Origin: a virus
Taxonomy: Duplodnaviria; Heunggongvirae; Uroviricota; Caudoviricetes
Reading direction: 5' to 3' (one strand)
Length of the DNA stretch: 64,000 nt
IMG/VR virus record: IMGVR_UViG_2721755712_000001
Shown here: one piece after another, positions 1,193 to 59,799 of the stretch
How positions within the stretch are numbered: position 1 is the first letter of the stretch
Layout: every line of letters begins with the position of its first letter
Translations under genes and position numbers: made by a program
Notes under the pieces: generated by a model
What the model was told of the DNA's origin: nothing
The model's input: the letters and a program-made list of their open reading frames with translations, nothing else
Databases searched by the model: none

Positions 1193-4100
1193 TTACTTAT
1201 TTATTGTCTCCGCGATATCAGCCAGAATGGCCTCCAGTCGCTCTCCTTCTTCCGGTCGGAAGTACAGGATATTCGGGTTAAATCCGTAGAAGACGGTTGC
1301 ATCAAGCTCTGGGAAGTACTCCTTACGACCAATCAGATCTGATGGTTTACTCTTATTGTTAAATAGTGCGGTTGAACGACTACCACACGTCAAAATGTAG
1401 GTTGGTCGTACAAGATTAATTTCTTCCCGCATAAAGTCTGTGAACTGGCCTATCTCGTCTTTGGTATAGTCTTTCTCTTTGTCCTTAACCTTCTTACAAA
1501 CACCCGTGACATAAAGATCGCCCATGCGCAGATCTCCAACTGTCAGTAGTTTTGCCTTAAAGTCGTCGTATCCGTTCTCCATGAAGTAGCCGGTACGAGC
1601 GTCATTGCCGTTCGCATTGTCCAGAATGATCATGATTTTGGGTTTAATACCAATAGTCGGGCGTATCAACTCCTCACCCAAGCCCATTTCAGCCGCCATA
1701 CGTGTCATGAGTACGTTGATTTCGGCAGAACGCTTAGGATTCATTTCGAACGGACGTGATGCTTTAACAGCGTCAATGATGAGATTGCCCATCAGCTCAG
1801 CCTGGTCGCGCAGTCGTTCAGGATCAGTTGCTGGCAGACTGCCTGGCTCAATTGACGCAAAAGCCCCTACTTTATGAAGCGACTCGCGTACACGACTGTT
1901 ACATGCACGCTTCTCGACCGCTTCATCGAATTGTGCCACTGACTCGAATTTGCCACCAACTTTCTCACGCGCACGCATAATTGCCTGACAACCATTTTCA
2001 GAACAGCCTTTCACAGCAGAGAATGGCGCATACAGTGCCTGACTGCCGTCTTCGAGTGTGCGGATCTCAATTCGGTTAGATGACACATTAACGTCTGGTG
2101 GCAATACGCGAATGCCATAGGTCAGCGCATCCTTCACCAGCCCCTGATGCTTATCCTCGCCCAGAATGGTGAGCGCAGCTGCGAAGAACTCAGCAGGGTA
2201 GTGCGTCTTTAGCCACATAGACTGATAACTGATTAAAGAATAAGCAACGGAGTGTGATTTATTGAACTGATAGGCTCCGTTTTTCTCAAATGCGGTCCAG
2301 ATCTCCTTCGCTTTCATCTCTGATAGCCCTGGATGTGACGCTGTAACGCGTACTGCGTTTATAGGTAGTTTTGCGCCGTGCTCAAGTGCCTCTTCGACAG
2401 TTTTCAGAGTTCCGTCTTCGCATTTAAAATGTTCCGCACGGTGAATGCGCTGTGTAGTGCCATCTTCCAGCTCAACGTCTATCCAGCCAGCTTGAGCCTG
2501 AACGATGAACTTCTCGCCCATGCTCTTCATTTTTTCCATGTTCTTCTTACCGATTGCGGAACGCACAGCGTCAGCTTCAGCCATTGTGAAGCCGGCAAGC
2601 AATCGAGTCGCGTTCATCGTCTGTTCCTGATAGAGAATCACGCCATTTGTTTCCGCGGTAAGTTCATCAAGAACGGGGTGTAATGATTCCGGCGTCATAA
2701 AGCCTTTGGCGACAGAAACATAGTCATCCAACATGCCTGATTGAATTGGCCCCGGCCGGAAGAGCGCAGTTGTAGCGACGACCGTTTTAAAGCTCATTGG
2801 CTCAATTCCACCACCTAAATCTTTAAGCAGCTTGCGCATTGGGCCTGATTCAAGCTGGAAAACACCTTGAGTGTACCCAGCAGCAAAACCATCCAGCACC
2901 TTGCGATCTTCAAGAGAAATGGCATCAAGATTGATATCTTCACCTGTGTTCTCTTTTATGTAGCGTTTTGCACTATCGAGCAAATCGAGAGTTGCCAGGC
3001 CAAGCACGTCCAGCTTAATTAGGCCCATAGCCTCGCAGTAACGCTTGTCAAATGCGATACAACGCGCGTCACCACGGCGCTCAACCGGTGTACGTTCTGT
3101 CAGAGGAACACCTGCTACGATCATCCCTGCCGCATGTCTACCAAAGCCACGCATAAGGCTTTGTAACTTGCAGGCTGCATTGAATGCATCAGGATATTTT
3201 GTTGCGTATTTGTCGAGACTTGCCAGTTGTTCGCGCAGCTCTTCCAATGGAAGGCTATCATCCTCGACGTTCTTCAGTTCTTTTGATACCGCCATATCTG
3301 CGGACTCCACACCATAAATACGAGCGGTATCACGTAGTGCAGAGGCTGCGCCCAGGTAGGTGAAGTTCGGAATACCCGCAACGTAATCTTCGCCGTAGCG
3401 TTCATTCAGATACTCGATCACCTCATGGCGACGTGCCTGGCTGAAGTCCAAGTCCGCATCCGGCAAGTCGAGACGCTCAGGGTTGATGAAACGCTCAAAC
3501 AGAAGACCGTGACGGATTGGGTCGACGTTGGTTATGCCTATGCACCACGCCACCAGAGAACCGGCAGAGGAACCACGACCAGGCCCAACGGGAATGCCAG
3601 TTTCACGACTATGATTCATCAGATCGCGTACCATCAGGAAGTAACCACAAAATCCCAGGCGAGTCAGCGTGTCCATTTCGTACTTTAGCCGCTCAACATA
3701 AACCCTGTTCTCAGAAGCAGGTGGTGTGTAGCCAAACTCTTTTGTGGTAAGACGTTTACGCAGCCCTGCAACAGCCAGTTTCATAAGCGTTGCAGGCTCG
3801 TCGTCTGCCATCTTTGGCAGTGCTGGCGGCAATTCATGCCAGCGCCATGTGCAGGCATCGATAATGGTATCCTGCGTTGTTGAGGCCATTGCAGCTGTTA
3901 CCGGCACATCCATGCGAACGGAGAAGGCTTTAAGCGCCTCAAGGAGATGGCGGCGACCATTGACGGCGTTATCTCGCTGGTGGGGGATACGCAGACGATG
4001 CGGCTGGTCGATTTTGATGTTGTTCGTAACCATGTGCGCAATGTCTTTAATGTCTGCATCGTCGATCGATTCGTAATAAGCGGGATAGAACGCCACTGGC

Positions 4101-4711
4101 TCTATTTTCAATGCGCTGGCGACTTTCATCGCCCGGACGTTAATCTGGTCGTAGAATGGGGTAGGGTGCGGATAAACCACACTATAGAAGTTGTCTTTTC
4201 CACCCGCTGTAATCAGTGTGCTTATGATTTTTGCAAAATCGTTGCGTTGGAACACGCTACCGATGTCGGAAGTAAGCAGGATGATGTTGCCTTTGGCATA
4301 TGTAGAAACCAACTGTTCGAGCGAGAGACGCGGTACAAAGTAGAACTGTTCTCGTGTGTTGGCCACCGTCATTAGTTCGCAGATGTCGCGATATCCTTGC
4401 TCATTTTTAATTAGAGCGGTAAACGAGTAGTTACGTCCCCGCTCTAATGATTCCATACATCTCATAGATTCTTTAGCAAGTTTAGCCCGGTGCTCGTATG
4501 TGGGATCATCAACAATGTTTAGTTTCACACCACAAATAACCGCCATGTCGTCACCAGCGGCACGTTGTAGTGGAATAACGCTCGCAATATTCATGCTATC
4601 TGCTGAAATTACAGCGGTGTAGCCAGCTTCTCTGGCAATCTTCACCGCGTTTTCTGCTTTTAGAGCCGACTCCCCAAGTGAGAAGTCAGTTCGAACCATC
4701 AGTGCTTTCAT
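1193..4711 (-). CDS. DNA polymerase III alpha subunit-like replicative polymerase (DnaE family)
   Basis: 1172 aa; contains GPGRGSSAGSLVAWCIGITNVDPIRHGLLFERFINPERLDLPDADLDFS, matching the DnaE palm/catalytic-aspartate region; N-terminal PHP-like region appears degenerate (no His cluster). Confidence 0.9.
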   Translation of the reverse strand: MKALMVRTDFSLGESALKAENAVKIAREAGYTAVISADSMNIASVIPLQRAAGDDMAVICGVKLNIVDDPTYEHRAKLAKESMRCMESLERGRNYSFTALIKNEQGYRDICELMTVANTREQFYFVPRLSLEQLVSTYAKGNIILLTSDIGSVFQRNDFAKIISTLITAGGKDNFYSVVYPHPTPFYDQINVRAMKVASALKIEPVAFYPAYYESIDDADIKDIAHMVTNNIKIDQPHRLRIPHQRDNAVNGRRHLLEALKAFSVRMDVPVTAAMASTTQDTIIDACTWRWHELPPALPKMADDEPATLMKLAVAGLRKRLTTKEFGYTPPASENRVYVERLKYEMDTLTRLGFCGYFLMVRDLMNHSRETGIPVGPGRGSSAGSLVAWCIGITNVDPIRHGLLFERFINPERLDLPDADLDFSQARRHEVIEYLNERYGEDYVAGIPNFTYLGAASALRDTARIYGVESADMAVSKELKNVEDDSLPLEELREQLASLDKYATKYPDAFNAACKLQSLMRGFGRHAAGMIVAGVPLTERTPVERRGDARCIAFDKRYCEAMGLIKLDVLGLATLDLLDSAKRYIKENTGEDINLDAISLEDRKVLDGFAAGYTQGVFQLESGPMRKLLKDLGGGIEPMSFKTVVATTALFRPGPIQSGMLDDYVSVAKGFMTPESLHPVLDELTAETNGVILYQEQTMNATRLLAGFTMAEADAVRSAIGKKNMEKMKSMGEKFIVQAQAGWIDVELEDGTTQRIHRAEHFKCEDGTLKTVEEALEHGAKLPINAVRVTASHPGLSEMKAKEIWTAFEKNGAYQFNKSHSVAYSLISYQSMWLKTHYPAEFFAAALTILGEDKHQGLVKDALTYGIRVLPPDVNVSSNRIEIRTLEDGSQALYAPFSAVKGCSENGCQAIMRAREKVGGKFESVAQFDEAVEKRACNSRVRESLHKVGAFASIEPGSLPATDPERLRDQAELMGNLIIDAVKASRPFEMNPKRSAEINVLMTRMAAEMGLGEELIRPTIGIKPKIMIILDNANGNDARTGYFMENGYDDFKAKLLTVGDLRMGDLYVTGVCKKVKDKEKDYTKDEIGQFTDFMREEINLVRPTYILTCGSRSTALFNNKSKPSDLIGRKEYFPELDATVFYGFNPNILYFRPEEGERLEAILADIAETINK

Positions 4712-4895
4712 GTGTTTTTACCTTTATGGTTTTTTTGATTTTGTCATTGGGGAAGCCTACGAACTTCCCATACATCGAAATCGCAACTTCTTTTGCTGAT
4801 TGGTGACAATCGGGCTTGTCTGGACATACCAGACAAGCCTTACCAGTTTCAGAAGCAGCGATAAGAGAGCCGAAACATCCTTTACGCACGATCAA
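4686..4895 (-). CDS. small Cys-rich protein, possible zinc ribbon
   Basis: 69-aa ORF overlapping the polymerase start; C-x2-C...C-x4-C spacing; coupled between CobS-like and polymerase genes. Confidence 0.35.
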   Translation of the reverse strand: MIVRKGCFGSLIAASETGKACLVCPDKPDCHQSAKEVAISMYGKFVGFPNDKIKKTIKVKTHESTDGSN

Positions 4896-6127
4896 CCAAA
4901 TATTTTTTGAACAACTTCACGAGCCGCTTGTGCAGAAGCTGAAGGGAGTTTGTTAATGAAAGAACGCTCAATACCTGTCACAAAGTCGCCTCGCATCATT
5001 CCAATCTTGGCCGACAACAAAAGTTCACGAGGGCCAATTGGCTGACTGATAAGGTGCTCTTCGTATCCATCGCGAACGATACCGGCAAACTTAACCATCT
5101 TTTCTGCGTATTCATCCACGATACCGGCATTTATCAACATGTTGATCTCTGCCTCTTTGCTCATGTATTTCACATTCGAAACGATGCCAAAACGCGAAAA
5201 GTTCGCGGCGTTCTGGATGTTTGTACCCTGGTACAAGCCGGTTTCATCACCAGATCCGTTCGTGTTGCCAGTGCCAATGAAAGCAAACCGTTCATGCGGA
5301 GTAATGCGACGCCATTCTGGAGTCGCCTCTTTGATGACCAACGCTTCACCTTCCAGCACTGGCTGATACACGCCAAGAATCTGTGGAAACGCAAAGTCGT
5401 ATTCATCCGCGAGGTAAACCCAGCCATGCTTCATTGCGAGCGCAAGCAAGCCAGGCTCGAAATACGTAGAGCCATCACGCGCCAGAATTTGCCCCGTAAC
5501 ATGTGCCTCTTCCATTGATGCTGTATGTTGGGCACGGATCAACGGACGATTGAGCAAAGCACATAGTTGTGTAGGCAATGACGATTTGCCTGTTCCTGCA
5601 TGACCCCACAAATAGCCAGGTATGCCAAGTTCAAGCATCATGAAAATGTCTTTGATCAGTTCGAAGTCGCCATATACGTAGCCCTTCTTCACTTCTGGAA
5701 CGAACTCTGGAAACGGCGTATTGACGTTGACGCTAACCATGAGCGGCGTCCCACGTTTTGTTCCGAGTTCTTTCACCGTTACATTTAGCAGTTCGTGAGC
5801 TGCGACCAGATCTGTCTTGTACTCAACTGTGCCTGTGTAGCCTGGGCTACTGGTCACGCCAGATGATTTGGCCATTTCGCTTTTTTGCTCGGCACGTTTA
5901 GCTTGAATTGCATCAAGTGCCTTTTTCGATAGCGTTGGCTCATCTGGAAACTGTGTTGTGTACATTTTCAGTACGGTGTCAGGATCGGCATCTTTTACTG
6001 ACTCAGGAATGCCCTCGCAATTACCATTGGCTACATGGGACTTAAAATAGTGAAATGATTTTCCGCACCACTTGCAAACAAGGTAATCAGAAGGATTTTT
6101 TTCATTTTGCAGTGCAGTAGTAGTCAT
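4892..6127 (-). CDS. AAA+ ATPase, CobS/MoxR-like, with N-terminal Cys cluster
   Basis: Walker A GHAGTGKS, Walker B VYLADEYD; N-terminal CKWCGKSFHY...C motif; paired with a downstream vWA protein as in CobS/CobT pairs. Confidence 0.65.
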   Translation of the reverse strand: MTTTALQNEKNPSDYLVCKWCGKSFHYFKSHVANGNCEGIPESVKDADPDTVLKMYTTQFPDEPTLSKKALDAIQAKRAEQKSEMAKSSGVTSSPGYTGTVEYKTDLVAAHELLNVTVKELGTKRGTPLMVSVNVNTPFPEFVPEVKKGYVYGDFELIKDIFMMLELGIPGYLWGHAGTGKSSLPTQLCALLNRPLIRAQHTASMEEAHVTGQILARDGSTYFEPGLLALAMKHGWVYLADEYDFAFPQILGVYQPVLEGEALVIKEATPEWRRITPHERFAFIGTGNTNGSGDETGLYQGTNIQNAANFSRFGIVSNVKYMSKEAEINMLINAGIVDEYAEKMVKFAGIVRDGYEEHLISQPIGPRELLLSAKIGMMRGDFVTGIERSFINKLPSASAQAAREVVQKIFG

Positions 6128-6222
6128 GCGTTTTTCCTTTGTTTTCTAATGAGCGTTCAACTTCTTATATAAATATATCATTATCTATCGTAAGTGGTTA
6201 CTTATCGTTAAGGCTGTTTTGT

Positions 6223-8331
6223 TCACTTTAAAATGATACGAGATAGTTCAGTAACTACAGATGAACCAAGACTATCAACGCTCGTTACCAGGGCATGATT
6301 TGAGTAAAATCTCTCCGGTGCGTCAGTCATGATGCCAATTGCCATCAAATCAATGTCAGTCTGCGTTTCAATTTGCTTCGCAACCGAACGCAAATGAGCG
6401 TCAAAACCTCTCCCAACAGCCCACGGCTCGCCATCGCTCAGAACAAGCATGATCTTCCTGTCCTCCATGCGACCGGAAAATAACGATGCAAGGCTGGCTA
6501 TGCTTTCACCATCCACGTTATTAAGAAGTGGGAATGTGTAGCCTACGCACCCCATACGTGAGCGAACTTCGCGAGAATTTACCTTTTCATTCCAATTTTT
6601 GATGATAGGTAGCATTAAAGATTCAAAGCGAGAGAACTCATACTTGACAGCCTTAAGTTCTCCTGCCGCCATATGACTACCAAATGTAGTGAAGCCTGTG
6701 ATAATGTTGGGAACATTTATTCGATCAAGGGCATCGGCGATGGTATATGCACTTGCAAGAGCCAATTGTATCGTTATACCCCTCATTGAACCTGATAAAT
6801 CAATCACTTGTTGAACACAGGCGTTAACGGCTTTAGATTCTTCTTTTTTACGAAACACGCGATCATCATTCATTGCTAATCTGTAGATACTAGAACCATG
6901 AATGCGCCCCCGACGCTGGCCCGGTATAAACTGAACTCTGTTTCTGCTTGCTATTGCTCGCTCCAGGTCTTTTGCCAGCGTCGACGAAACACCTGACGAA
7001 AGATGCTTTTCAATATATTTGTCGAAGAGCTGGTTGCCTTCAGGAACGATGCGATAGCGGCTGATTGGACATCCTCCTAAATCAATATCGGAGAATGTTT
7101 TAATAAGCCGTTTGATATGGGCTTCTGCCTGATCAATCGAGCCGATGAAGTCGTATGAGCGATTGTATGGCCTGTATTCGCTTTTCGAGCTTTCTGTTAA
7201 CTCGCTTTTAATCGTTTCGGATAGAGCATCTTCTGTCATGCCTCCGACTTCATCTTCTATGCTATCCAGCTCCTCTAAAGCCTCTTCCAGACTCATTTTT
7301 GACGGAGTTGGGATATCTGAAGAGCCGTCTTCTGTCGTTTTTCTTTTTTCGTGGTCAGCGGTTAATGATTCTGACGCCGCGTTATCAGAAGCATCAGAAT
7401 CTGATACCTCTTTATCATTTTCTGTATCATCGAATATTGTTTCTGATGATTCAGATAATTCTGAATCATCACTGTTGTTATTATCATGTTTGTGCTTACT
7501 ATGTGATTCTGATTTGATAGATTTGTGGTTATCTAACGATGAAGATGTCTCATGATCTTCGTTGTCTTCATTGTTTTCTCCAGAGGCATCCGTCTGGTCA
7601 GCGTCTGAAGGATCGGAAGTTTTTCCCGGAGCTGACTCCTTACCATTGCTTTCACTTTCAGTGTCTTTGAGGATCTTAGCTATGGTCGCAGCCACCTTTA
7701 CACAATCCTCGGTGCAAGACATGTTACGCACGGCCACATCGATACCATGTTCTTTTAATAATGAAATTGGTTTCTCAATGACAGGCCAGTATTCATCCAT
7801 GAAATCTACGAACGGTGCTTGGCCATCCCAGGCTCTTACAACCGGACAGAGAAAGAAGTTTAGAAAAAGCGCGCGCTGATCTTTGCCACAATAAGCAATA
7901 GCCTCTGAAGCCTTTGGTTTAAAGACTTTTTCGATTATAAGGCGCTGAGTTGCCATCAGATTACGTCTTGTTCCGTTAAAGACCTGACCCATTTTTCGCT
8001 CGATGAACACGTCTTCTAAGGCATTCCATAGCGACCAGGAAGGAACGCGTCCTTTTTCTCTCATTTTGTTGGACACACGAATATCGGTAAACAAAATGTG
8101 AGCAACCTCATGATCGAGAAATCCGCGCACAGCATTCATCAATGCCGGTGTTGCGTTATCCGGGATTGATGGGATGTTTACGAGAATTGGCTCTCCATCA
8201 TCGTTATAGCGTACATAAGCGTCGTCCCCTCGTTCTGCAACAGGGATGTTTTTACCTGAAAGGAGAGCGACTACTCGTTTTACACTGTCACGGAAGTCCT
8301 GAACCTCTTTGATGGAACGTTTTTTAGACAT
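6223..8331 (-). CDS. CobT-like von Willebrand factor A protein with acidic Ser/Asp/Glu-rich linker
   Basis: C-terminal MIDAS-like motif VIDLSGSM; central low-complexity acidic region; N-terminal HEVAH (HExxH) motif. Confidence 0.6.
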   Translation of the reverse strand: MSKKRSIKEVQDFRDSVKRVVALLSGKNIPVAERGDDAYVRYNDDGEPILVNIPSIPDNATPALMNAVRGFLDHEVAHILFTDIRVSNKMREKGRVPSWSLWNALEDVFIERKMGQVFNGTRRNLMATQRLIIEKVFKPKASEAIAYCGKDQRALFLNFFLCPVVRAWDGQAPFVDFMDEYWPVIEKPISLLKEHGIDVAVRNMSCTEDCVKVAATIAKILKDTESESNGKESAPGKTSDPSDADQTDASGENNEDNEDHETSSSLDNHKSIKSESHSKHKHDNNNSDDSELSESSETIFDDTENDKEVSDSDASDNAASESLTADHEKRKTTEDGSSDIPTPSKMSLEEALEELDSIEDEVGGMTEDALSETIKSELTESSKSEYRPYNRSYDFIGSIDQAEAHIKRLIKTFSDIDLGGCPISRYRIVPEGNQLFDKYIEKHLSSGVSSTLAKDLERAIASRNRVQFIPGQRRGRIHGSSIYRLAMNDDRVFRKKEESKAVNACVQQVIDLSGSMRGITIQLALASAYTIADALDRINVPNIITGFTTFGSHMAAGELKAVKYEFSRFESLMLPIIKNWNEKVNSREVRSRMGCVGYTFPLLNNVDGESIASLASLFSGRMEDRKIMLVLSDGEPWAVGRGFDAHLRSVAKQIETQTDIDLMAIGIMTDAPERFYSNHALVTSVDSLGSSVVTELSRIILK

Positions 8332-23597: not shown

Positions 23598-23652
23598 ACC
23601 TGCTTCCGTATATATTTAATAAGTTACTTATTATTTATATATACAGAAGCAG
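23598..23652. repeat. 55-bp near-palindromic element, copy 1
   Basis: CCTGCTTCCGTATATATTTAATAAGTTACTTATTATTTATATATACAGAAGCAGG, identical to 54905..54959; sits in the divergent region between the interrupted gene and the GIY-YIG gene. Confidence 0.9.
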
Positions 23653-23764
23653 GCATAACTTGTCGTCTTAGACGCCCAGAAGCTCTACACTTTGAGCCTG
23701 TTAAATTGATTAAAAACTTATGTGTAAAATAGAACGCATTAGTCAGTAGCAAAGAGATGCAATA

Positions 23765-52898: not shown

Positions 52899-54155
52899 CT
52901 ATCGAGAACCACCAAGAATAACACGGTTTTTGACTGGATACCTACGATGTACTGGATAGCCCAATGCGTCTGCACTATGCTCAATGCCACCTGTCTTATC
53001 CATATCTCGTGTTCCAGGCTTGTAGATGACTTTTTCCAGTGAATCAATCAAATGCTTGCACTTCGGATCGATATACAGCCGGATATCTCCAGATGCGGTC
53101 ATCAGCATTCGGTTAACAGCATTAACACGATCCGCAATTGGCGGGTGCTTTTTCGAATAATCGACACGTAAGAATCCCTTCTCTTTGAATATGTCGACGT
53201 CAGACTCCCCGCGAGCATGTTGGCGATAAGCACCTGCCGGATCTGGAAATACCGTTATCTGTGATTTCCAGCGCCAGAAGCGTCTCTCAAGCTCATCACA
53301 AACCTCTGCCGTGTTAGAGGAAAAGAGCACCAATTCATCAATTGCCCATAGCTCACCATTTGGCTGAGGTTGCAAAATTACGGAAGACATCGGGTCAATG
53401 TTGAAGTCCTGCCCTACCCATATAGGCAACCGAGGGTTGAACTGAAGCGGTTTTACATGCACGTTACGATCAAACGGGTAGTAAACGCGCCCGGACATGT
53501 TCTCAAAGCTGGCCAGGTACTCCTGAGCGAACGATTTGGGGTCCATATCGTTCTTAGCAGCTTCAATTTCCGCCGTAGGTACAAACGGAGAATCGGCAGT
53601 TACAAACTGCCAGCTCTTCCACTGTCCCTTTCTTTGCAGCTCTACGTTCTGGCCTATAGTCCACAGTTTGTGAAATTCCGAGAAGCCTTTTGGCGTACCA
53701 ATGATCAGTGCACCGCCGCGTGTCGATGAAAGAGTAGGTCGTAACACCTTGTACCAGGTGTCAGCCTTCATATCCTGAAATTCATCAAGCACTACAAAAT
53801 GCAACGCTACGCCGCGCAGAGTGTCAGGCTTATCAGCACCTTTGAGGGCGATCTCCGAACCGTTCTTCAACACGATTGTCATCGTGGTGTCGTTCTTTTT
53901 CCTAACCCACTTACGAGGCAGAACTTCCTGTAGATCGTCCCACAAAATCTGGCGAGCCATTTGGTAAGTAGGAGCGACATACCAGACCCTTTGCTTTTTT
54001 TCCTTTGCCGCCGCACGAATAATAGTGGAGATCGACAACCGGGATTTTCCCCAGCGTCGACCAGCACAAACAACTTTAAATCGATGCGGAGACTGGAAGA
54101 CTTTCATCTGTCCAGAATGCAGTTGCACAAGACTGAGCGAGGACGGGATTGCCAT
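52899..54155 (-). CDS. terminase large subunit
   Basis: 418 aa; Walker A-like VVCAGRRWGKS, Walker B HFVVLDEF, and an acidic C-terminal nuclease-like half. Confidence 0.8.
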   Translation of the reverse strand: MAIPSSLSLVQLHSGQMKVFQSPHRFKVVCAGRRWGKSRLSISTIIRAAAKEKKQRVWYVAPTYQMARQILWDDLQEVLPRKWVRKKNDTTMTIVLKNGSEIALKGADKPDTLRGVALHFVVLDEFQDMKADTWYKVLRPTLSSTRGGALIIGTPKGFSEFHKLWTIGQNVELQRKGQWKSWQFVTADSPFVPTAEIEAAKNDMDPKSFAQEYLASFENMSGRVYYPFDRNVHVKPLQFNPRLPIWVGQDFNIDPMSSVILQPQPNGELWAIDELVLFSSNTAEVCDELERRFWRWKSQITVFPDPAGAYRQHARGESDVDIFKEKGFLRVDYSKKHPPIADRVNAVNRMLMTASGDIRLYIDPKCKHLIDSLEKVIYKPGTRDMDKTGGIEHSADALGYPVHRRYPVKNRVILGGSR

Positions 54156-54787
54156 TATTCGTCCTCCTCTTCACTTCCATCATCTGTCGCATCAAATTCG
54201 CTTAGAGCTTCTTCTTCCAACGTCTCAAGCAATTCGTCATCGATGATTTCAGGCTCGTCGTCTTCCTGACGTAATTTCGCCACCTGGGAAGGCGTAAGCT
54301 CACCAAATACCAGGTTCGGAATTTCTTCCTCGTCATTTTCCGCATGATCCATGCCCAATGCTTTGGACGAAACTTCAAAGCATTTTGCAAGGGTATTACT
54401 GGCTCTCTGTAAGCTCTTGAGAGAATCCTCAATCGCCCCTAAAGGCTTACCCTCACGTTTGGCCGTAGTGACTTCGACCATCACCATCTGCCCCAACGCA
54501 TACGCCCAGCCGTCATAACGTGTACGACGTTCTTCTATCTTTTCCGCACGGGCTTTAGCGCGAAGCTCTGCGTCAGATTTAAGAGACTCACGAACCATCT
54601 TCCCAACAGAGTCCGCACCTTTCTCTAATCCTCGCTTTTTGAAATGTCTGGAGAGTGTTTCACGACGAATGCCGTACTCTTCCTCCAGCTTTGAGAGTGT
54701 ATATTCGCCTGACGTCCATTTGGCTTCAGCTTCGGCCCACTCCGCTGGTGTCAGGCGAGTTTTTACCTCGTCTTTTTCGACCGTCAT
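54155..54787 (-). CDS. terminase small subunit
   Basis: 210 aa; N-terminal HTH-like LSKLEEEYGIRRETLSRHFKKRGL, acidic C-terminal tail; overlaps the large subunit start. Confidence 0.55.
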   Translation of the reverse strand: MTVEKDEVKTRLTPAEWAEAEAKWTSGEYTLSKLEEEYGIRRETLSRHFKKRGLEKGADSVGKMVRESLKSDAELRAKARAEKIEERRTRYDGWAYALGQMVMVEVTTAKREGKPLGAIEDSLKSLQRASNTLAKCFEVSSKALGMDHAENDEEEIPNLVFGELTPSQVAKLRQEDDEPEIIDDELLETLEEEALSEFDATDDGSEEEDE

Positions 54788-54904
54788 AGATCCCTCTAAA
54801 ACACACAGAGCGCGTCCATGCGCTCTAAAACAACTTGTTTACTGAATCTGCTAACCAACTTGTTTTCTGGGGTGTTTAATTAGGTCTGGGCATGTCTTAT
54901 TAAG

Positions 54905-54959
54905 CCTGCTTCCGTATATATTTAATAAGTTACTTATTATTTATATATACAGAAGCAGG
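54905..54959. repeat. 55-bp near-palindromic element, copy 2
   Basis: identical to 23598..23652; about 120 bp upstream of the small terminase start. Confidence 0.9.
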
Positions 54960-54983
54960 TCTTTAAATAAGCTCCCAGACCGA

Positions 54984-55250
54984 TTACATCACCAGTAACT
55001 TCGCTTTGGCTCGACCTAAAGTGGTTAACCCAAGAGTTCGGCGGTGATAGCGATTGTCACTGCGTTGGCGCGTATGCCCTTTCTCCACCAGCCCCTTTTT
55101 TATCAGAGCGCGAATTGAGAACTGGATACTTTGCTTGGTTGTCTTGTACGGCAAAACTTCAAGCAATTCGTCCAGATCAAGTAAATGACCTCGCTCATAA
55201 CCGAGATTGAGCGTTTTGATGATGTCCTTTTGTTTATCGGTTAACGTCAT
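54984..55250 (-). CDS. small DNA-binding protein (winged-helix-like)
   Basis: 88-aa basic protein ending the upstream operon; helix-turn-helix-like core TTKQSIQFSIRALIKKGLVEKG. Confidence 0.4.
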   Translation of the reverse strand: MTLTDKQKDIIKTLNLGYERGHLLDLDELLEVLPYKTTKQSIQFSIRALIKKGLVEKGHTRQRSDNRYHRRTLGLTTLGRAKAKLLVM

Positions 55251-55259
55251 GGCAAATCC

Positions 55260-56150
55260 TTATGCCGGTAAAGCAATTTCTAACGGTTTATCCAAAGGTT
55301 GTTTGTCGAATGCCAGCAGTGGCAGCGTGTCAGGCAGCCGACGACCAAAGTCAGGGTTTCGGTACACACCATACAACGGAGACGTAAAGCTCAGGTTGTG
55401 AATGTCCTTGAGCAGCTTCACAATGCTGGCCTCGTCCACCAGACTGTCGGCAATGTCCTGAATCGTCGTGCCACGATTCCGCCCAGCTTTTGCCAGGGAA
55501 CTGTTCTTGTGGTAGTCCGCTACCAGATCACGCAGTGCACGGCGACGACGAGACTCGCTCATTGCGAACAACTCTTTGACGATCGCCTCGTTATCACCCG
55601 GGTCGGAACGGAAATGGCGCTGGAATACACGCAGTGCACTTTCATAGCTCTTCGGTCGCTCAGGGCGGATGAACTTAAACCCTGCTTTCATGGCGAAGGG
55701 ATTGTATTTGCTCATCGAGGACTGGATCTCAATGATTGGCCGGTCATGCATCCTGCTAACCAGGTTAATCATTCGATAAGAGACGCCTACGCCACGATAC
55801 TGAGTATCCACAACTGAGCGACTGATCACCGCAAAGTTGTTATTCACGTACCGACCCCAGTACTGGTTAGCCACGGTGGTATTAGTGGTTGGTTTCAACT
55901 TAGGAAACATGCGGTGGCGAGGTGCCAACAGTAGTTTCGGGTAAGCCATAACCACGACGCCCACCAGACGGTCATCAAGTTCGCAGCGATAGTAAGTTGG
56001 CGCGAAAGGTTTGCCGTCTGTTTTGTAGTGAAGCGACTTAAGAGCGTGCCAGTCCTCTACAGTTCCCTTTGTGACAGTCATTCGCTCCAGAAAGTCCAGA
56101 TGACGCGGAAACTCTTCAGGGCGGTAGCGTTTAATGATGATGTCCGTCAT
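55260..56150 (-). CDS. hypothetical protein with GNAT-like acetyltransferase motif
   Basis: 296 aa; VVDTQYRGVGVSYRMINLV (Q/R-x-x-G-x-G) and NPFAMKAGFKFI resemble GNAT motifs A and B; about 130 extra C-terminal residues. Confidence 0.35.
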   Translation of the reverse strand: MTDIIIKRYRPEEFPRHLDFLERMTVTKGTVEDWHALKSLHYKTDGKPFAPTYYRCELDDRLVGVVVMAYPKLLLAPRHRMFPKLKPTTNTTVANQYWGRYVNNNFAVISRSVVDTQYRGVGVSYRMINLVSRMHDRPIIEIQSSMSKYNPFAMKAGFKFIRPERPKSYESALRVFQRHFRSDPGDNEAIVKELFAMSESRRRRALRDLVADYHKNSSLAKAGRNRGTTIQDIADSLVDEASIVKLLKDIHNLSFTSPLYGVYRNPDFGRRLPDTLPLLAFDKQPLDKPLEIALPA

Positions 56151-56812
56151 AAATGAACCTCATCATGACTACCATTGTGATATTCCACCTTCACGCGTTC
56201 TTTGTAGTGCTTGGTGATCTGCATATCCGGGCGCAGCGCGTTCTTCAGGTCTTCGTGAGTCGTCGCCACCATTACCGTCGCACCAACCTTTCGAGCGGCA
56301 CGCTGGAGGTTAGATGCCACAACCTGAGCGGTTACACGGTCTAGAACAGCCCCGAACTCGTCAGCAGCCCACACTTTAGCGCCTGACTCAATCAGTTTGG
56401 CAATCTTGAGACGATATTTCTGGCCGTCTGACATTTCAGAAGGCTTGCGAACAAACAGATATGCATCGTTCAGACCAGCCATAGATAACAACCCAAGCGC
56501 ATCACTGGTCGTTTTGCCCAACTGATCGATGACGTTAACCTCATTATCGAAGGTAAAATCATCGATGGAGGCTACAGACAGCCCTTCATCCTTCATCTGT
56601 CGTTGCAACTCGCGCAGCACAACGGATTTGCCGGATCCGGATTGGCCGGTGATGTACACCACATCGCCCTGCTTCACTTCCAGCTCCAGATTGTCGTAAA
56701 GCGTCCACTCTTTTTCGTCCAGGCCAAGCCCGAACGACTCAGCGATTTCCAACGTGCGCGTGGTTTTATTTACGCGTGTCTGAAACGATACGTTGATGAT
56801 GTATTTGCTCAT
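56147..56812 (-). CDS. small ABC-type P-loop ATPase
   Basis: 221 aa; Walker A GQSGSGKS, signature-like LSDGQKYRLKIAKL, Walker B KVWAADEF, H-loop-like ATTHED. Confidence 0.6.
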   Translation of the reverse strand: MSKYIINVSFQTRVNKTTRTLEIAESFGLGLDEKEWTLYDNLELEVKQGDVVYITGQSGSGKSVVLRELQRQMKDEGLSVASIDDFTFDNEVNVIDQLGKTTSDALGLLSMAGLNDAYLFVRKPSEMSDGQKYRLKIAKLIESGAKVWAADEFGAVLDRVTAQVVASNLQRAARKVGATVMVATTHEDLKNALRPDMQITKHYKERVKVEYHNGSHDEVHL

Positions 56813-57510
56813 GCAGCCATCTCCCCGGAAGAGATCTTCTCCGCATATGCCACAAATGCGTCTACCCCGCTTTCTCCTGTCATTTCTTCCATGTGGGCAA
56901 GCAAATCACCAACAACAATGGCAGAGCCAGCAGGGAGCGTTTTAAAGCCCAATACGTCGACAACACGTACTTCTTCCGCTGCAACTTCACGACTGATCTC
57001 GGTGTGTTCATCCTTCTGTCGTTTAGTTTCTTCGCCAAGATCGATAACTAGCGAGTCGGTGTCCATTTCTTCTGTCATACTGCCAACGAGAACATTCAAC
57101 TCACGCTCTTCAAAGCCGAAAACCTCGATATCGTCCAGAACAAGCGACTCAAGCTCTTTCTGTAGCTTAATTGCATCGTAATCAATGCTGGCTAGTCGGT
57201 TATCTTCAAGGCGCTTCGCACGAACCTCGTCATCACTGAGATCATCGCGAACAATAACCGGTACGCGCTCAAGTCCAGCAAAAATTGCAGCCTCACGGCG
57301 GCCGTGGCCAGTAATAATTACGTCGTTCTTATCGACCGTAATTGGCTGGTCAAATCCGCGCTTTTTAATGGCTGCGGCCAGATCTCGGATCTGCTGTTCA
57401 TCATGCTTTTTGGCATTCATCTCATAGGGAATAAGATCTGCCGGGTCGCGATATACGATTTCAAACTTTTTGGTCATTACATACGCTCCTTGTAGTAGTC
57501 GACCAGCCAC
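56809..57510 (-). CDS. ParB/Srx-like nuclease-domain protein
   Basis: 233 aa; ParB-type motif IITGHGRREAA; acidic C-terminal half. Confidence 0.55.
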   Translation of the reverse strand: MAGRLLQGAYVMTKKFEIVYRDPADLIPYEMNAKKHDEQQIRDLAAAIKKRGFDQPITVDKNDVIITGHGRREAAIFAGLERVPVIVRDDLSDDEVRAKRLEDNRLASIDYDAIKLQKELESLVLDDIEVFGFEERELNVLVGSMTEEMDTDSLVIDLGEETKRQKDEHTEISREVAAEEVRVVDVLGFKTLPAGSAIVVGDLLAHMEEMTGESGVDAFVAYAEKISSGEMAA

Positions 57511-58175
57511 ACCAGAGCCTCACCAGCGTTCTCCATTTCATTACCGGTGTTAATAGCCTGCTCTTTGATGATGTTTTTTATGGTTTCTGCAACGCGATCT
57601 GACGCATCGAAGGTTACTTTGAAGCGCATGGTCTGATGTTCCGCACCGACACGTTCGGTTTTCTCTCGTTTGTCGGTATCGACAGGCTCGTCACCGCCAC
57701 GAGACAACGCCTCCAGTGCTTCAAGGTCGATTGCAGCCTCTTTTGCTAAAACCATCGAGATTTCGTCGTCATACGGGGCGATTTCAGACAGTTGATAGTC
57801 AAGTTCTGACTGAATTTCTTCAATGAAGCGTTGCAATGCGATTTGGTCGTCTTCACCGTATCGCTCGTTGTCCACCAGTGACATCTGTTTAGCTACGACA
57901 TCGCTAATTTTGCCCACAGAAAGCACCGGAACCGTTGAAATTCCTTGCTCAATAGCAGCACGCCAGCGATGTTCGCCGCCGAGGATTTCAAAAAATCCAT
58001 CTTCAAGTTCACGAGCCAAAATTGGCTTAAAAAAGCCCAATTTTTCGATAGAACCTTTCAGTTTTTCAAAATTCTGCGCACCAACCGAATTGGTGTTCCA
58101 GGTATTCGGGCGAAGGTTGGCAACATCAACCTGCAAAATCGTGATTTTTACATCCATTTTATTGCTACAATCCAC
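57477..58175 (-). CDS. ParB/Srx-like nuclease-domain protein
   Basis: 232 aa; canonical ParB box motif ILGGEHRWRAA. Confidence 0.65.
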   Translation of the reverse strand: MDCSNKMDVKITILQVDVANLRPNTWNTNSVGAQNFEKLKGSIEKLGFFKPILARELEDGFFEILGGEHRWRAAIEQGISTVPVLSVGKISDVVAKQMSLVDNERYGEDDQIALQRFIEEIQSELDYQLSEIAPYDDEISMVLAKEAAIDLEALEALSRGGDEPVDTDKREKTERVGAEHQTMRFKVTFDASDRVAETIKNIIKEQAINTGNEMENAGEALVWLVDYYKERM

Positions 58176-58239
58176 TAAGTAATCACTTACTTATTATAAT
58201 AGCCAAATAACATACAAAAGGCACTAAGGAAAGAGGTTT

Positions 58240-59799
58240 ATGACTGTTCGGATTGTATCTAACGCAGTAAATGCGCTTATTTCTGGCGCAGATGACAAGG
58301 TAAAGCAAATGGTGCAACAGATGTTGAGCTACGAAGTCGAGACTGGCGACTGGAAGGGCACAAGCACGATGTTCAACTGGAGTAAAAACTCGTTCCCTGC
58401 TGGCTTTGCCAAGCCTGTAGCGGCGAACTTGAACAAGGCGGGCATCAAATGTGTTCATATCCGCAAAGACAAAGCCCCGGCGCTTGGTAAACCAAATCCG
58501 GCGGTTAACCCATTCCCATACAATCCTGATTATGCGTATCAGGATCAGACTGTGGAAACACTGGTTCGAGAGGGAATGATGATTGCGCAGATCGCTACTG
58601 GTGGCGGGAAATCTAATGTTGCCTGCAAAGCAGCTGCACGTATCGGTCGAATGACATTATTTTTAACAACCCGCTCTGTTCTGATGTTTCAAATGGCCGA
58701 AAACTTCCAGAGATCCATCGACTACCGCGCCAAAAATGGCGAACCGTGGTTAAAAGACCAAAAGGTTGGAGTCATTGGCTCGGGTGAGTTCCAGGTATCA
58801 CGACATATCAACGTCGCTACAGTTCAAACTCTTGCAAGTTTCCTCGAAGAACCACCACGCGATGCAACACCAGATAAGAAAAGCTACCACCTCAAACGTC
58901 GGGACTTGGTGAAACGCTTCCTTTCAAGTGTGTCTCTGCTTATTCTGGAAGAGGCGCATGAGTCTTCAGGTTCTAATTTCTATGACATTGCCAGATTATG
59001 TGTGAACGCAGACTATCGTCTGGCACTTACGGCCACGCCGTTCATGAAGGATTCTACAGAAGCCAACATGCGTCTGATGGCTGTGGCTGGGCGAATTGAA
59101 ATCAAAGTCACAGAAAAGTACCTGATTGATCGAGGCATTCTGGCAAAACCGTACTTCCTTTATCATAAAGTTGCCTACAAGCCAGACGAGGCCAGAATCA
59201 AGGCCGAACTTGCCAACAAACACCTCAATTTTAGAGTTGGTATGAGCACCGCCTACCAAAAGGCTTATCAGTTGGGGATCGTGTATAATTTGGGACGTAA
59301 CGAGGCCATTGTGCGCGAAGCATTGCTCTATAAGCAACATTCTCTCAATTGCATGACTCTGGTTCGTCTTAAACGCCACGGGCAAATCCTGATGGAAATG
59401 ATGAAAGAGTCCGGCCTTAGAGTTGACTTCATTTATGGGGAATCGAACCAGTCGACAAGGCAAGCAAAGCTGAACAGTTTAGCGTCTGGTGAAATAGATG
59501 TTTTAATAGGCTCGACTATTCTGGATGTTGGTGTTGATGTGCCAAGCGTTGGTGCGGTCATTCTTGCTGGTGGTGGGAAAGCAGAAGTTGAAATGAGACA
59601 GCGTGTCGGTCGTGGCTTACGAGCCAAGAAGAATCAGGCAAACGTGTGTTTTATCACTGATTTCATTGACATTAGCAACAAATACCTGTTGTCTCACTCT
59701 TATGAGCGAAAACACATCATCGACACCACACCTGGCTTTGCAGAAGGTGTATTGCCTATTGATGGCGCATTCGATTTTGGAGTTCTGAAACGAGATTAG
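58240..59799 (+). CDS. superfamily 2 helicase (DEAD/DEAH-like)
   Basis: motif I ATGGGKS, motif II LILEEAHE, motif III LTATP, motif VI QRVGRGLR. Confidence 0.75.
   Translation: MTVRIVSNAVNALISGADDKVKQMVQQMLSYEVETGDWKGTSTMFNWSKNSFPAGFAKPVAANLNKAGIKCVHIRKDKAPALGKPNPAVNPFPYNPDYAYQDQTVETLVREGMMIAQIATGGGKSNVACKAAARIGRMTLFLTTRSVLMFQMAENFQRSIDYRAKNGEPWLKDQKVGVIGSGEFQVSRHINVATVQTLASFLEEPPRDATPDKKSYHLKRRDLVKRFLSSVSLLILEEAHESSGSNFYDIARLCVNADYRLALTATPFMKDSTEANMRLMAVAGRIEIKVTEKYLIDRGILAKPYFLYHKVAYKPDEARIKAELANKHLNFRVGMSTAYQKAYQLGIVYNLGRNEAIVREALLYKQHSLNCMTLVRLKRHGQILMEMMKESGLRVDFIYGESNQSTRQAKLNSLASGEIDVLIGSTILDVGVDVPSVGAVILAGGGKAEVEMRQRVGRGLRAKKNQANVCFITDFIDISNKYLLSHSYERKHIIDTTPGFAEGVLPIDGAFDFGVLKRD

What the first reader, a model, noticed from the sequence alone, without database searches (positions are those of the whole stretch)
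54984..58175. Uncharacterised five-gene operon (two ParB-like proteins, ABC-type ATPase, GNAT-motif protein, winged-helix-like protein) upstream of the terminase
Five minus-strand ORFs are translationally coupled, with stop/start overlaps at 57477..57510, 56809..56812 and 56147..56150. The sequence shows two ParB/Srx motifs (GGEHRWRAA, ITGHGRREAA), a complete ABC ATPase motif set in only 221 aa, and GNAT-like motifs in a 296-aa protein. I do not recognise this combination as any described partition, packaging, defence or DNA-modification system. ParB-like domains bind or cut DNA and use nucleotides, and GNAT folds include DNA base-modifying enzymes such as Mom, so a DNA-modification or anti-defence role before packaging is plausible but unproven. 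The operon is bracketed by the dyad motif at 58175..58195 and the 55-bp palindrome at 54905..54959.
Basis: partly seen in the sequence, partly recalled or inferred. Interest (0 to 1): 0.8.

Follow-up and report, generated by a model that had tools for sequence, protein, structure and literature searches.

The report
Phage ParB–ABC–GNAT module beside terminase
Just upstream of its DNA-packaging genes, this E. coli phage-plasmid carries a real, lytic-cycle five-gene operon whose core (an ATPase plus an acyl-transferase helped by ParB-like proteins) recurs next to terminases and DNA polymerases in many unrelated viruses and most likely adds a still-unknown acyl mark to viral DNA.

Summary

It is not a partition system. 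It is silent in the Cyrano lysogen, and both ParBs are acidic and lack an HTH domain.

ABC plus GNAT is a split form of COG2401, the fused ABC-GNAT protein. Across viruses this pair lies beside TerL. It abuts or is fused to PolA, PolB and DnaE polymerases. It is preceded by, or fused to, a ParB domain. Formyltransferase, ASCH and methyltransferase genes often follow it.

The Aravind group had already predicted ABC-GNAT to acylate a DNA base, and nobody has tested this. My best reading (0.5) is a ParB-assisted, ATP- and acyl-CoA-dependent DNA modification made before packaging.

This is a new variant of a predicted kind, in a tractable E. coli/Salmonella phage. Interest 0.6.

The parts
58176..58193 (.). 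Perfect dyad TAAGTAA-N4-TTACTTA in the 82-bp divergent region between ParB1 and the UvsW-like helicase. It is a probable operator or promoter element.
   Evidence: 14 copies (2 mismatches or fewer) in the window against 0.09 expected. By position against the ORF map, 12 of the 14 lie between ORFs (one is inside the portal ORF, one spans an ORF boundary).
57477..58157 (-). ParB1: an HTH-less ParB/Srx protein of 226 aa, counted from the ATG (a GTG alternative lies at 58175). It has an N-terminal NTP-binding-type domain (GGEHRWRAA), an acidic linker and a small C-terminal domain.
   Evidence: Pfam ParB_N E 3e-13. phrog_723 E 3e-79. Aligns to Spo0J/ParB CTP-binding domains. Net charge -18. Architecture from alignment A5.
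56809..57477 (-). ParB2: a paralogue of ParB1, 222 aa, with motif ITGHGRREAA. It has the same N-domain, acidic linker and C-terminal domain layout.
   Evidence: Pfam ParB_N E 1.5e-8. phrog_930 E 1e-112. Next-best matches include the ParB module of phage DNA methyltransferases: phrog_498 E 5e-32 and PADLOC MTase_II E 3e-17. Net charge -22.
56147..56812 (-). Stand-alone ABC-type ATPase of 221 aa with a shortened helical subdomain. It corresponds to the N-terminal half of COG2401.
   Evidence: Pfam ABC_tran E 6e-13. phrog_293 E 6e-59 and phrog_11143 (a fused ABC-GNAT family) E 6e-24. 52-64% identical across the lineage, as conserved as TerL. It shares the conserved motifs of fused proteins; P0269 aligns across this gene and the GNAT gene in the Cyrano record.
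55260..56150 (-). GNAT-fold acyl-CoA transferase of 296 aa plus a C-terminal helical domain. It is basic (pI 9.8) and corresponds to the C-terminal half of COG2401.
54984..55250 (-). Small basic MarR-type winged-helix protein of 88 aa. It is specific to this lineage and is a probable DNA-binding specificity or regulatory subunit.
   Evidence: AF2 pLDDT 80 with H-H-H-wing-H topology. Foldseek matches MepR/MarR, TM 0.75, prob 1.0. phrog_900 E 2e-45. Detected in 20 of the 26 genome loci (22 of 28 with L003 and L004).
54883..54981 (.). A 99-nt imperfect palindrome (55-bp core at 54905..54959) starting 3 nt after the operon's last stop codon. It marks the operon boundary. It may be a regulatory, cos or centromere-like site.
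   Evidence: RNA fold z -8.9. An exact 55-bp second copy lies at 23599..23653. The SSU5 and Cyrano linear records break inside it, at window position about 54922.
54806..54827 (-). GC-rich hairpin followed by a U-tract (terminator-like), just upstream of the TerS start.
   Evidence: also visible in the fold.
52899..54787 (-). Context: TerS-like gene (54155..54787) and TerL (52899..54155), the conserved downstream neighbours.
   Evidence: Pfam Terminase_6N/6C. phrog_867 and phrog_2. Cyrano annotation. Synteny.
58240..59799 (+). Context: divergently transcribed UvsW-like helicase, the conserved upstream neighbour.
   Evidence: Pfam ResIII/DEAD/Helicase_C. Conserved in all 25 genome loci whose sequence reaches that far upstream.

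Best explanation
The operon is a lytic-cycle machine that acts on nucleic acid, most likely phage DNA.

Catalytic core. The ABC ATPase and the GNAT protein are the two halves of the viral ABC-GNAT (COG2401) enzyme. I infer that ATP-driven dimerisation of the ABC domains closes two basic GNAT subunits on DNA. The GNAT then transfers an acyl or aminoacyl group from a CoA thioester to a base.

Access to the genome. The enzyme has no motor of its own. Different viruses appear to give it access to the whole genome in different ways:
- fusing or translationally coupling it to the replicative polymerase;
- coupling it to the terminase;
- as here, pairing it with HTH-less ParB/Srx NTP-binding proteins. 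By analogy with ParB-dependent phage thymine dioxygenases, these would clamp or activate the enzyme on DNA.

The small winged-helix protein would supply DNA targeting or regulation. The product would be modified DNA made just before packaging, protecting it from host nucleases.

Shown: the folds, the split/fusion relationship, the conserved neighbourhoods and silence in the lysogen. Inferred: the substrate, the chemistry, the role of the ParBs and the benefit to the phage.
For: 1. Folds and motifs are intact.
2. ABC and GNAT match fused ABC-GNAT proteins along the lengths of both proteins, with shared motifs.
3. Polymerase links come in several independent forms:
   - a PolB-ABC-GNAT fusion (P0201) inside a viral replication module;
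   - one ORF joining ABC-GNAT and PolA in L063;
   - abutting UDG-PolA (L098), intein-containing PolB (L086), and a DnaE-type polymerase about 120 bp downstream (L040).
4. TerL lies within 3 genes in 60 of 109 non-redundant viral loci, and is usually the gene immediately upstream.
5. In six cultured phages from four bacterial phyla a ParB gene directly precedes ABC-GNAT, and in five of them terminase genes follow a few genes downstream: BiggityBass, Jace, EastWest, phiNIH1.1, LE4 and Pmp13.
6. Single polypeptides carrying ParB + Zn-ribbon + ABC + GNAT exist (hhalign probability 98.7%, E 2e-16). One lies between an N6/N4 and a C5 DNA methylase.
7. Other group-transfer or modified-base-associated genes follow ABC-GNAT:
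   - Formyl_trans_N in three unrelated phages;
   - ASCH in two lineages;
   - Amidoligase_2 with GGACT.
8. The GNAT protein is strongly basic, +15.
9. The operon is at background expression in the Cyrano lysogen (5-9.5 against a median of 9.8), while the MinD/ParA-like CYRAN_99 reads 92.
10. Precedent: HTH-less phage ParBs are obligate activators of DNA thymine dioxygenases. Those pathways co-occur with ParB (27%), terminases (19%), helicases (8%) and polymerases (5%).
11. An independent published prediction reaches the same function (PMC7824862).
Against: - No modified base has been reported for SSU5-like phages, and I could test none.
- GNATs more often acetylate proteins or small molecules, and the acceptor here is unknown.
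- The module is kept in every member of a lineage spanning alpha- and gammaproteobacteria. The ABC gene is as conserved as TerL. That pattern looks more like a core replication or packaging function than a typical accessory anti-restriction gene.
- ParB1 and ParB2 are very acidic and have no DNA-binding domain, so their contact with DNA would have to be indirect.
- No ParB was detected next to the most numerous fused lineage.
- The TerL count is dominated by one viral lineage, so it does not represent 60 independent observations.
Confidence: 0.5

Rival explanations
1. Replication/packaging accessory without base modification. The ABC dimer would be an ATP-gated clamp or assembly factor for the polymerase and terminase. 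The GNAT would acetylate a protein (terminase, portal, polymerase or a host nucleoid protein) or be non-catalytic. The ParB 'nuclease-domain' proteins would help cut cos or pac DNA, as HNH proteins do in HK97-like cos phages.
For: - The operon sits where cos-phage accessory genes sit, at the end of the genome next to a large palindrome and TerS/TerL.
- ABC-GNAT overlaps or directly abuts TerL or polymerase genes in other viruses.
- It is universally retained, and the ABC gene is as conserved as TerL.
- Nickievirus TerL groups with 3' cos phages (PMC8537276).
Against: - This does not explain the recurrent formyltransferase, ASCH, methyltransferase and amidoligase neighbours.
- It does not explain why the acyl-CoA motif is conserved across the whole family.
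- TerS is present separately in this window, in Pmp13 and in Jace.
- No nuclease activity can be inferred for these ParBs.
Confidence: 0.2
2. RNA- or host-directed acyltransferase. This would be a TmcA/NAT10-like ATP-dependent acetylation of tRNA or mRNA (for example ac4C). Alternatively it would acetylate a host defence factor or signalling molecule as a counter-defence.
For: - The ATPase+GNAT logic resembles TmcA (own knowledge).
- ASCH genes, a family that includes the ac4C amidohydrolase YqfB (PMC6972931), follow ABC-GNAT in two lineages.
- The ABC-to-GNAT gap in relatives holds the anti-defence sponges Acb4 (PF13876) and Tad2.
- RtcB or an RNA ligase lies nearby in two viral loci.
Against: - Fusions to DNA polymerases, coupling to TerL, ParB partners and DNA methylase neighbours all point to DNA.
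- No tRNA-binding or helicase domain is present.
Confidence: 0.15
3. Late-transcription control module. ParB-like NTP switches plus a wHTH protein would act at the dyad and palindrome sites to turn on the packaging/structural operon, in the manner of KorB/VirB-type ParB regulators.
For: - The position is immediately upstream of the late operon.
- The dyad motif occurs 14 times in the window, mostly between ORFs.
- A palindrome plus a terminator-like hairpin precede TerS.
- One archaeal ABC-GNAT protein carries a TFIIB repeat.
Against: - This gives no role to a conserved ABC ATPase + GNAT enzyme.
- The wHTH was found only in this lineage, and ABC-GNAT occurs without one in other viruses.
- The ParBs lack an HTH and are acidic.
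Confidence: 0.07
4. Plasmid partition (ParB centromere-binding proteins), as current RefSeq and PHROG names imply.
For: - Annotations read 'ParB/RepB/Spo0J family partition protein'.
- The element is a plasmid prophage.
- Two ParB copies were read as partition genes in related Acinetobacter phage-plasmids (PMC7969092).
Against: - The operon is silent in the lysogen, while ParA/MinD-like genes are expressed.
- There is no adjacent ParA; the nearest is about 30 kb away.
- There is no HTH domain, and both proteins are acidic.
- The same module occurs on large, apparently chromosomal contigs (up to 4.2 Mb) and in a Nickievirus with no temperate behaviour observed.
Confidence: 0.02

Closest known systems
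COG2401 / viral ABC ATPase-GNAT proteins, predicted by Iyer, Zhang, Burroughs & Aravind (NAR 2013, as cited in PMC7824862) to acylate a DNA base
   Same: The same two domains, with shared motifs along the lengths of both proteins. The setting is also viral, and the function is equally uncharacterised.
   Different: Here the enzyme is split into two translationally coupled genes. It is embedded with two HTH-less ParB paralogues and a wHTH protein. I could not read the 2013 paper, so I do not know whether the ParB, terminase and polymerase links were described there. I did not compare sequences with the cited example, Tenacibaculum phage pT24.
ParB-dependent phage thymine dioxygenases (5mYOX + ParB; bioRxiv 10.1101/2025.08.14.668559, PNAS 2026 PMC13229309)
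   Same: Both use HTH-less ParBs built from an NTP-binding domain, a disordered linker and a C-terminal domain. His stands at the catalytic Glu position in ParB2 and Asn in box I. Both sit in neighbourhoods rich in terminases, helicases and polymerases.
   Different: The partner enzyme here is ABC+GNAT, not an Fe/2OG dioxygenase. Two ParB paralogues are present. No activity has been shown.
Mom of phage Mu (GNAT-like DNA adenine acyl-modifying enzyme)
   Different: No Mom-specific sequence signal was found. Mom needs no ATPase or ParB. The similarity is no greater than to generic GNATs.
TmcA / NAT10 (ATP-dependent RNA cytidine acetyltransferase)
   Same: Both combine an NTPase with a GNAT for energy-dependent acylation of a nucleic-acid base. 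This is an analogy of logic, from my own knowledge.
   Different: The ATPase here is ABC-type, not a helicase-like module. No DUF1726 or tRNA-binding domains were found. The context points to DNA, not tRNA.
ParB N-domain-DNA methyltransferase fusions of phages (phrog_498; PADLOC MTase_II PDLC03229)
   Same: The ParB2 N-terminal module matches these strongly (E 5e-32 and 3e-17). In both cases a ParB module is attached to a DNA-modifying enzyme.
   Different: There is no methyltransferase domain here. The ParBs are separate proteins.
ParABS partition systems
   Same: Both contain the ParB N-terminal (CTP-binding type) domain.
   Different: No HTH domain, no adjacent ParA and no expression in the prophage.

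Membership tests
COG2401 / viral ABC-GNAT (predicted DNA acyl-modification enzyme) | ABC-type nucleotide-binding domain with Walker A, signature, Walker B/Glu and H-loop | tested here: met
   Pfam ABC_tran E 6e-13. The motifs are at G56-S63, M127SDGQ, D151-E152 and H186. The same columns are invariant in fused homologues.
COG2401 / viral ABC-GNAT (predicted DNA acyl-modification enzyme) | GNAT fold with an acyl-CoA pyrophosphate-binding motif | tested here: met
COG2401 / viral ABC-GNAT (predicted DNA acyl-modification enzyme) | The two domains are homologous to, and collinear with, the single-chain protein | tested here: met
   A profile of the 296-aa protein finds proteins of 450-500 aa, matching residues about 200-480 behind an ABC domain. 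phrog_11143 spans both genes. tblastn of fused P0269 covers both genes.
COG2401 / viral ABC-GNAT (predicted DNA acyl-modification enzyme) | Acylation of a DNA nucleobase | not testable with these tools
   This is only a published prediction (PMC7824862) plus the context evidence gathered here.
ParABS plasmid/chromosome partition | ParB with a centromere-binding HTH domain | tested here: not met
   Only ParB_N is hit. The C-terminal halves carry net charges of -14 and -20. Alignment A5 shows an N-domain, an acidic linker and a small C-terminal domain.
ParABS plasmid/chromosome partition | Adjacent ParA ATPase and expression during plasmid maintenance | tested here: not met
   The ParA gene (CYRAN_28) is about 30 kb away. 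CYRAN_119-123 read 5.0-9.5 against a background of 9.8, while the ParA/MinD-like CYRAN_99 reads 91.7.
ABC transporter | Partner membrane permease, and a helical subdomain that docks onto it | tested here: not met
   No membrane or permease family was hit among the operon genes and their immediate neighbours. Only 63 residues separate Walker A from the signature motif. Relatives are fused to GNAT, ParB or polymerases.
Mom family (momylation) | Sequence membership in the Mom clade of GNATs | tested here: inconclusive
TmcA/NAT10 RNA acetyltransferases | Helicase-type ATPase, DUF1726 and a tRNA-binding domain flanking the GNAT | tested here: not met
   None of these domains was detected. The ATPase is ABC-type.
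ParB-dependent DNA-modification modules (5mYOX type) | HTH-less ParB built from an NTP-binding domain, a linker and a C-terminal domain | tested here: met
   compared with the description.
ParB-dependent DNA-modification modules (5mYOX type) | TET/JBP-type dioxygenase partner | tested here: not met
   No such domain is present in the operon.
Known anti-phage defence systems (PADLOC) | Significant match of the set to a defence-system model | tested here: not met
   Only generic P-loop hits and ParB-MTase N-domain hits were found. Nothing matched the GNAT protein.

The most novel reading that the evidence does not exclude
The module is the first ATP-dependent DNA acyltransferase system. An ABC-ATPase clamp positions a GNAT that writes a previously unseen N-acyl (acetyl or aminoacyl, in some phages further formylated) mark on bases of viral DNA. 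NTP-switch ParB proteins, the replicative polymerase or the terminase make it processive. The system would operate across tailed viruses of bacteria and archaea.
Probability: 0.35. Interest if true: 0.85.

Novelty: new variant of a known kind. Interest (0 to 1): 0.6.

Why it matters
If the prediction holds, this would be a new chemistry of DNA modification, driven by acyl-CoA plus ATP. It would also be a second case, after the thymine dioxygenases, of ParB-fold proteins serving as cofactors of DNA-modifying enzymes.

The family is large. It includes more than 1,800 fused proteins and more than 560 IMG/VR stretches. It occurs in phages of Proteobacteria, Firmicutes, Actinobacteria, Spirochaetes and Bacteroidota, and in Bathyarchaeia assemblies. 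No member has been tested.

The SSU5/Cyrano version sits in about 4.6% of complete E. coli genomes and in a Salmonella phage that forms plaques. A prediction that has stood untested since 2013 could therefore be tested directly with standard genetics and nucleoside mass spectrometry.

The finding also corrects a widespread annotation error. These 'partition ParB' and 'ABC transporter' genes are neither.

Tried and rejected
- **Uninformative database searches.** NCBIfam, PADLOC and PDB sequence searches gave only generic ParB or ABC hits for four proteins and nothing for the GNAT protein.
- **Empty literature searches.** Searches for COG2401/MK0520, for SSU5 with ParB/ABC, for acetylated DNA bases in phages, and for Nickievirus biology found no functional study.
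- **Paper not available.** Iyer et al. 2013 could not be fetched. Its content is cited only through PMC7824862.
- **Wasted scans.** Three single-protein scans of viral contigs returned only the query contigs or near-identical copies.
- **Plasmid partition rejected.** See the fifth rival explanation.
- **ABC transporter rejected.** See the membership test.
- **Contig ends are not genome ends.** I first considered that many IMG/VR contigs ending exactly at the ABC-GNAT stop codon marked physical genome ends. I now attribute this to provirus trimming at gene edges.
- **Too weak to use.** An A32-like packaging ATPase plus a PD-(D/E)xK motif N-terminal to some 880-910-aa ABC-GNAT proteins scores only E about 0.01-0.02.
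- **No ParB near the largest fused lineage.** ParB neighbours were sought there with profiles and not found.
- **Fold ranking does not discriminate.** Fold-search ranking could not separate a Mom-like from a generic GNAT.

Full report
**What the window is.** The region is 98.5-99.4% identical to E. coli SSU5-like phage-plasmids (Cyrano, CMS-2020a, PhiR41_1). It is 85% identical to Salmonella phage SSU5 and about 81% to Klebsiella relatives. The operon occurs in 247 of 5,426 complete E. coli genomes, always on plasmids.

**Checking the observation.**
- Five co-oriented minus-strand ORFs are present.
- Two junctions are ATGA overlaps with good ribosome-binding sites.
- GNAT and wHTH are 9 nt apart.
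- The reported 34-nt overlap at 57477..57510 comes from the longest-ORF GTG start. The real ParB2 start is the ATG at 57477, a TAATG 1-nt overlap behind AAGGAG.
- The dyad (58176..58193) and the 55-bp palindrome are real. The palindrome is the core of a 99-nt hairpin (54883..54981, z -8.9). A terminator-like hairpin follows it before TerS.

**The five proteins.**
- Both ParBs hit only the ParB N-terminal domain and align to the CTP-binding box of Spo0J/ParB.
- The two ParBs are paralogues. Each has an N-domain, an acidic linker and a small shared C-terminal domain, with no HTH. Their net charges are -18 and -22.
- The ABC protein has a full motif set but a short helical subdomain.
- The 88-aa protein is a MarR-type winged helix.

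**Not a partition system.** In the published Cyrano lysogen transcriptome, the five genes sit at background (5.0-9.5 against a median of 9.8). The ParA/MinD-like CYRAN_99 reads 91.7, and the genes downstream of ParA are flagged as expressed (PMC9928086). ParA lies about 30 kb away. The same module occurs on large, apparently chromosomal contigs (up to 4.2 Mb) and in Nickievirus, for which one study saw no temperate behaviour.

**Conservation within the lineage.** In 26 genome loci, plus L003 and L004, from gamma- and alphaproteobacteria, identity falls to 37-45%. The order is kept throughout: helicase (divergent) | ParB1 ParB2 ABC [variable insert] GNAT wHTH TerS TerL portal. ABC identity (52-64%) equals that of TerL. 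About 19 further phage records (Rhizobium, Pseudomonas, Stenotrophomonas, Xanthomonas) carry it.

**The core is a split COG2401 enzyme.** A profile of the GNAT protein retrieves proteins of 450-500 aa in which the matching region follows an ABC domain. Alignments of those fusions share the motifs of both window proteins. Cyrano's annotators had noted 'MK0520, ABC-type ATPase fused to a predicted acetyltransferase domain'. The fused family has more than 1,800 members. These come from Firmicutes genomes (one confirmed prophage, in Pelotomaculum) and from Bathyarchaeia assemblies. It matches more than 560 IMG/VR stretches.

**Context outside the lineage.**
1. *Terminase.* TerL is within three genes in 60 of 109 non-redundant viral loci. 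It is usually directly upstream on the same strand. One lineage dominates this count.
2. *Polymerases.* ABC-GNAT is fused to PolB (P0201, in a replication module) and shares one ORF with PolA (L063). It abuts UDG-PolA and intein-containing PolB, and a DnaE-type polymerase starts about 120 bp downstream of it in L040.
3. *ParB.* In six cultured phages a ParB gene directly precedes a short fused ABC-GNAT. In five of them terminase genes follow a few genes downstream. The phages are Gordonia BiggityBass, Rhodococcus/Gordonia Jace, Arthrobacter EastWest, Streptococcus phiNIH1.1, Leptospira LE4 and Pasteurella Pmp13.
4. *ParB fusions.* Single chains carry ParB + Zn-ribbon + ABC + GNAT (hhalign 98.7%, E 2e-16). 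One lies between two DNA methylases.
5. *Other partners.* Formyl_trans_N follows ABC-GNAT in three unrelated phages. ASCH follows it in two lineages. Amidoligase_2 with GGACT follows it in Pelotomaculum.

The recurrent unit is therefore ParB + ABC + GNAT, tied to DNA-handling machines and to group-transfer enzymes. I found the second ParB and the wHTH only in the SSU5-like lineage.

**Prior art.** Iyer et al. [quoted passage not shown] I could not obtain the 2013 text. From memory, that paper also proposed ASCH domains as readers of modified DNA bases.

A separate precedent is experimental. HTH-less phage ParBs are required for DNA thymine dioxygenase activity. Those pathways co-occur with ParB, terminases, helicases and polymerases.

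**Mechanism.** I favour (0.5) an ATP- and acyl-CoA-dependent DNA base modification made in the lytic cycle before packaging. The ParBs would act as NTP-switch clamps or activators, and the wHTH as a targeting or regulatory subunit. The fold assignments, the split/fusion relationship, the neighbourhoods and lysogenic silence are shown. The substrate, the chemistry and the benefit are inferred.

The main rival (0.2) is a replication/packaging accessory without base modification. Its support is the module's core-like conservation and its cos-proximal position. RNA- or host-directed acylation (0.15), late-transcription control (0.07) and partition (0.02) follow.

**Verdict.** The operon is a new, split, ParB-duplicated variant of a predicted but untested kind. 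It sits in an experimentally easy host. Interest 0.6.

Noticed in passing
window 23599..23653 and 54905..54959: The 55-bp palindrome after the operon has an exact second copy about 31 kb away. That copy lies in a divergent intergenic region near the ParA/maintenance genes. The pair could be dispersed centromere-like, operator or origin sites, as in N15.
   Followed up: partly
window 11991, 14587, 17228, 18103, 23496, 23613, 23620, 32456, 39375, 45886, 51377, 54919, 54926, 58176: The dyad TAAGTAA-N4-TTACTTA occurs 14 times (2 mismatches or fewer) against 0.09 expected. 12 of the 14 copies lie between ORFs. This looks like a genome-wide regulatory or transcript-boundary element. The binding factor is unknown, and the 88-aa wHTH protein is a candidate.
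   Followed up: partly
L004:6961-7999, L033:6043-6898, L002:1235-1489, L003:7705-7995: In relatives, the gap between the ABC and GNAT genes is an insertion hotspot. It holds an Acb4-family (PF13876) gene and a RyR-domain gene in an Ectothiorhodospira assembly contig. It holds a Tad2-like (DUF2829) gene in Rhizobium phage RHph_N1_15, and small unknown ORFs in SSU5 and elsewhere. The E. coli window has no insert.
   Followed up: partly
L198:1823-2473 (Gordonia phage BiggityBass gene 3): This gene is annotated 'tRNA-methyltransferase' but hits Formyl_trans_N (E 7e-10). The same ABC-GNAT + formyltransferase pair occurs in Burkholderia phiE255 gp29-gp30 and in a Porphyromonas phage.
   Followed up: partly
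L036/L037 8001-11783 (P0201); L063 2989-6891; P0165: A 1,260-aa PolB-ABC-GNAT fusion protein is found on many contigs. A 1,300-aa ORF joins ABC-GNAT and PolA. A LAGLIDADG intein sits inside the ABC domain of P0165.
   Followed up: partly
L199:5528-5981 (Streptococcus phage phiNIH1.1): The GNAT part downstream of the annotated 'ABC transporter' p25 is unannotated. It is present only as an 89-aa fragment carrying the YQGVGLG motif, so it may be frameshifted. An ASCH-domain gene follows it.
   Followed up: no
L010, L016, L024, L030 (TerL region); L031 (whole locus): TerL matches are split by 1-1.4 kb inserts in several relatives, which suggests introns, inteins or homing elements. The Halomonas locus L031 shows many frame breaks across all genes, from a degraded prophage or sequencing errors.
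   Followed up: no
window 56809..58157; RefSeq plasmids such as NZ_AP023200.1: PGAP names ParB1 'ParB/RepB/Spo0J family partition protein'. PHROGs name the GNAT protein 'ABC transporter ATP-binding subunit'. Both names are misleading for this module.
   Followed up: yes
L039:11522-13344 and L038: In Pelotomaculum thermopropionicum, ABC-GNAT is followed by an Amidoligase_2 gene and a GGACT/AIG2 gamma-glutamyl cyclotransferase-like gene, upstream of TerL and the portal gene. In the related locus L038 an Amidoligase_2-like gene also follows it.
   Followed up: no
IMG/VR loci L043, L044, L046, L049, L066-L068, L072, L074, L076, L079, L106, L113: Many 'viral contigs' end exactly at the stop codon of the ABC-GNAT gene. 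This is most simply explained by provirus boundaries being trimmed at gene edges. It also means the classifier treats this gene as the last viral gene.
   Followed up: partly
window 1193..4711, 4892..8331 and Cyrano CYRAN_100: The phage-plasmid encodes its own DnaE-type polymerase and CobT/CobS-like proteins. Outside the window it also encodes a methionyl-tRNA synthetase. It carries tRNA genes as well.
   Followed up: no
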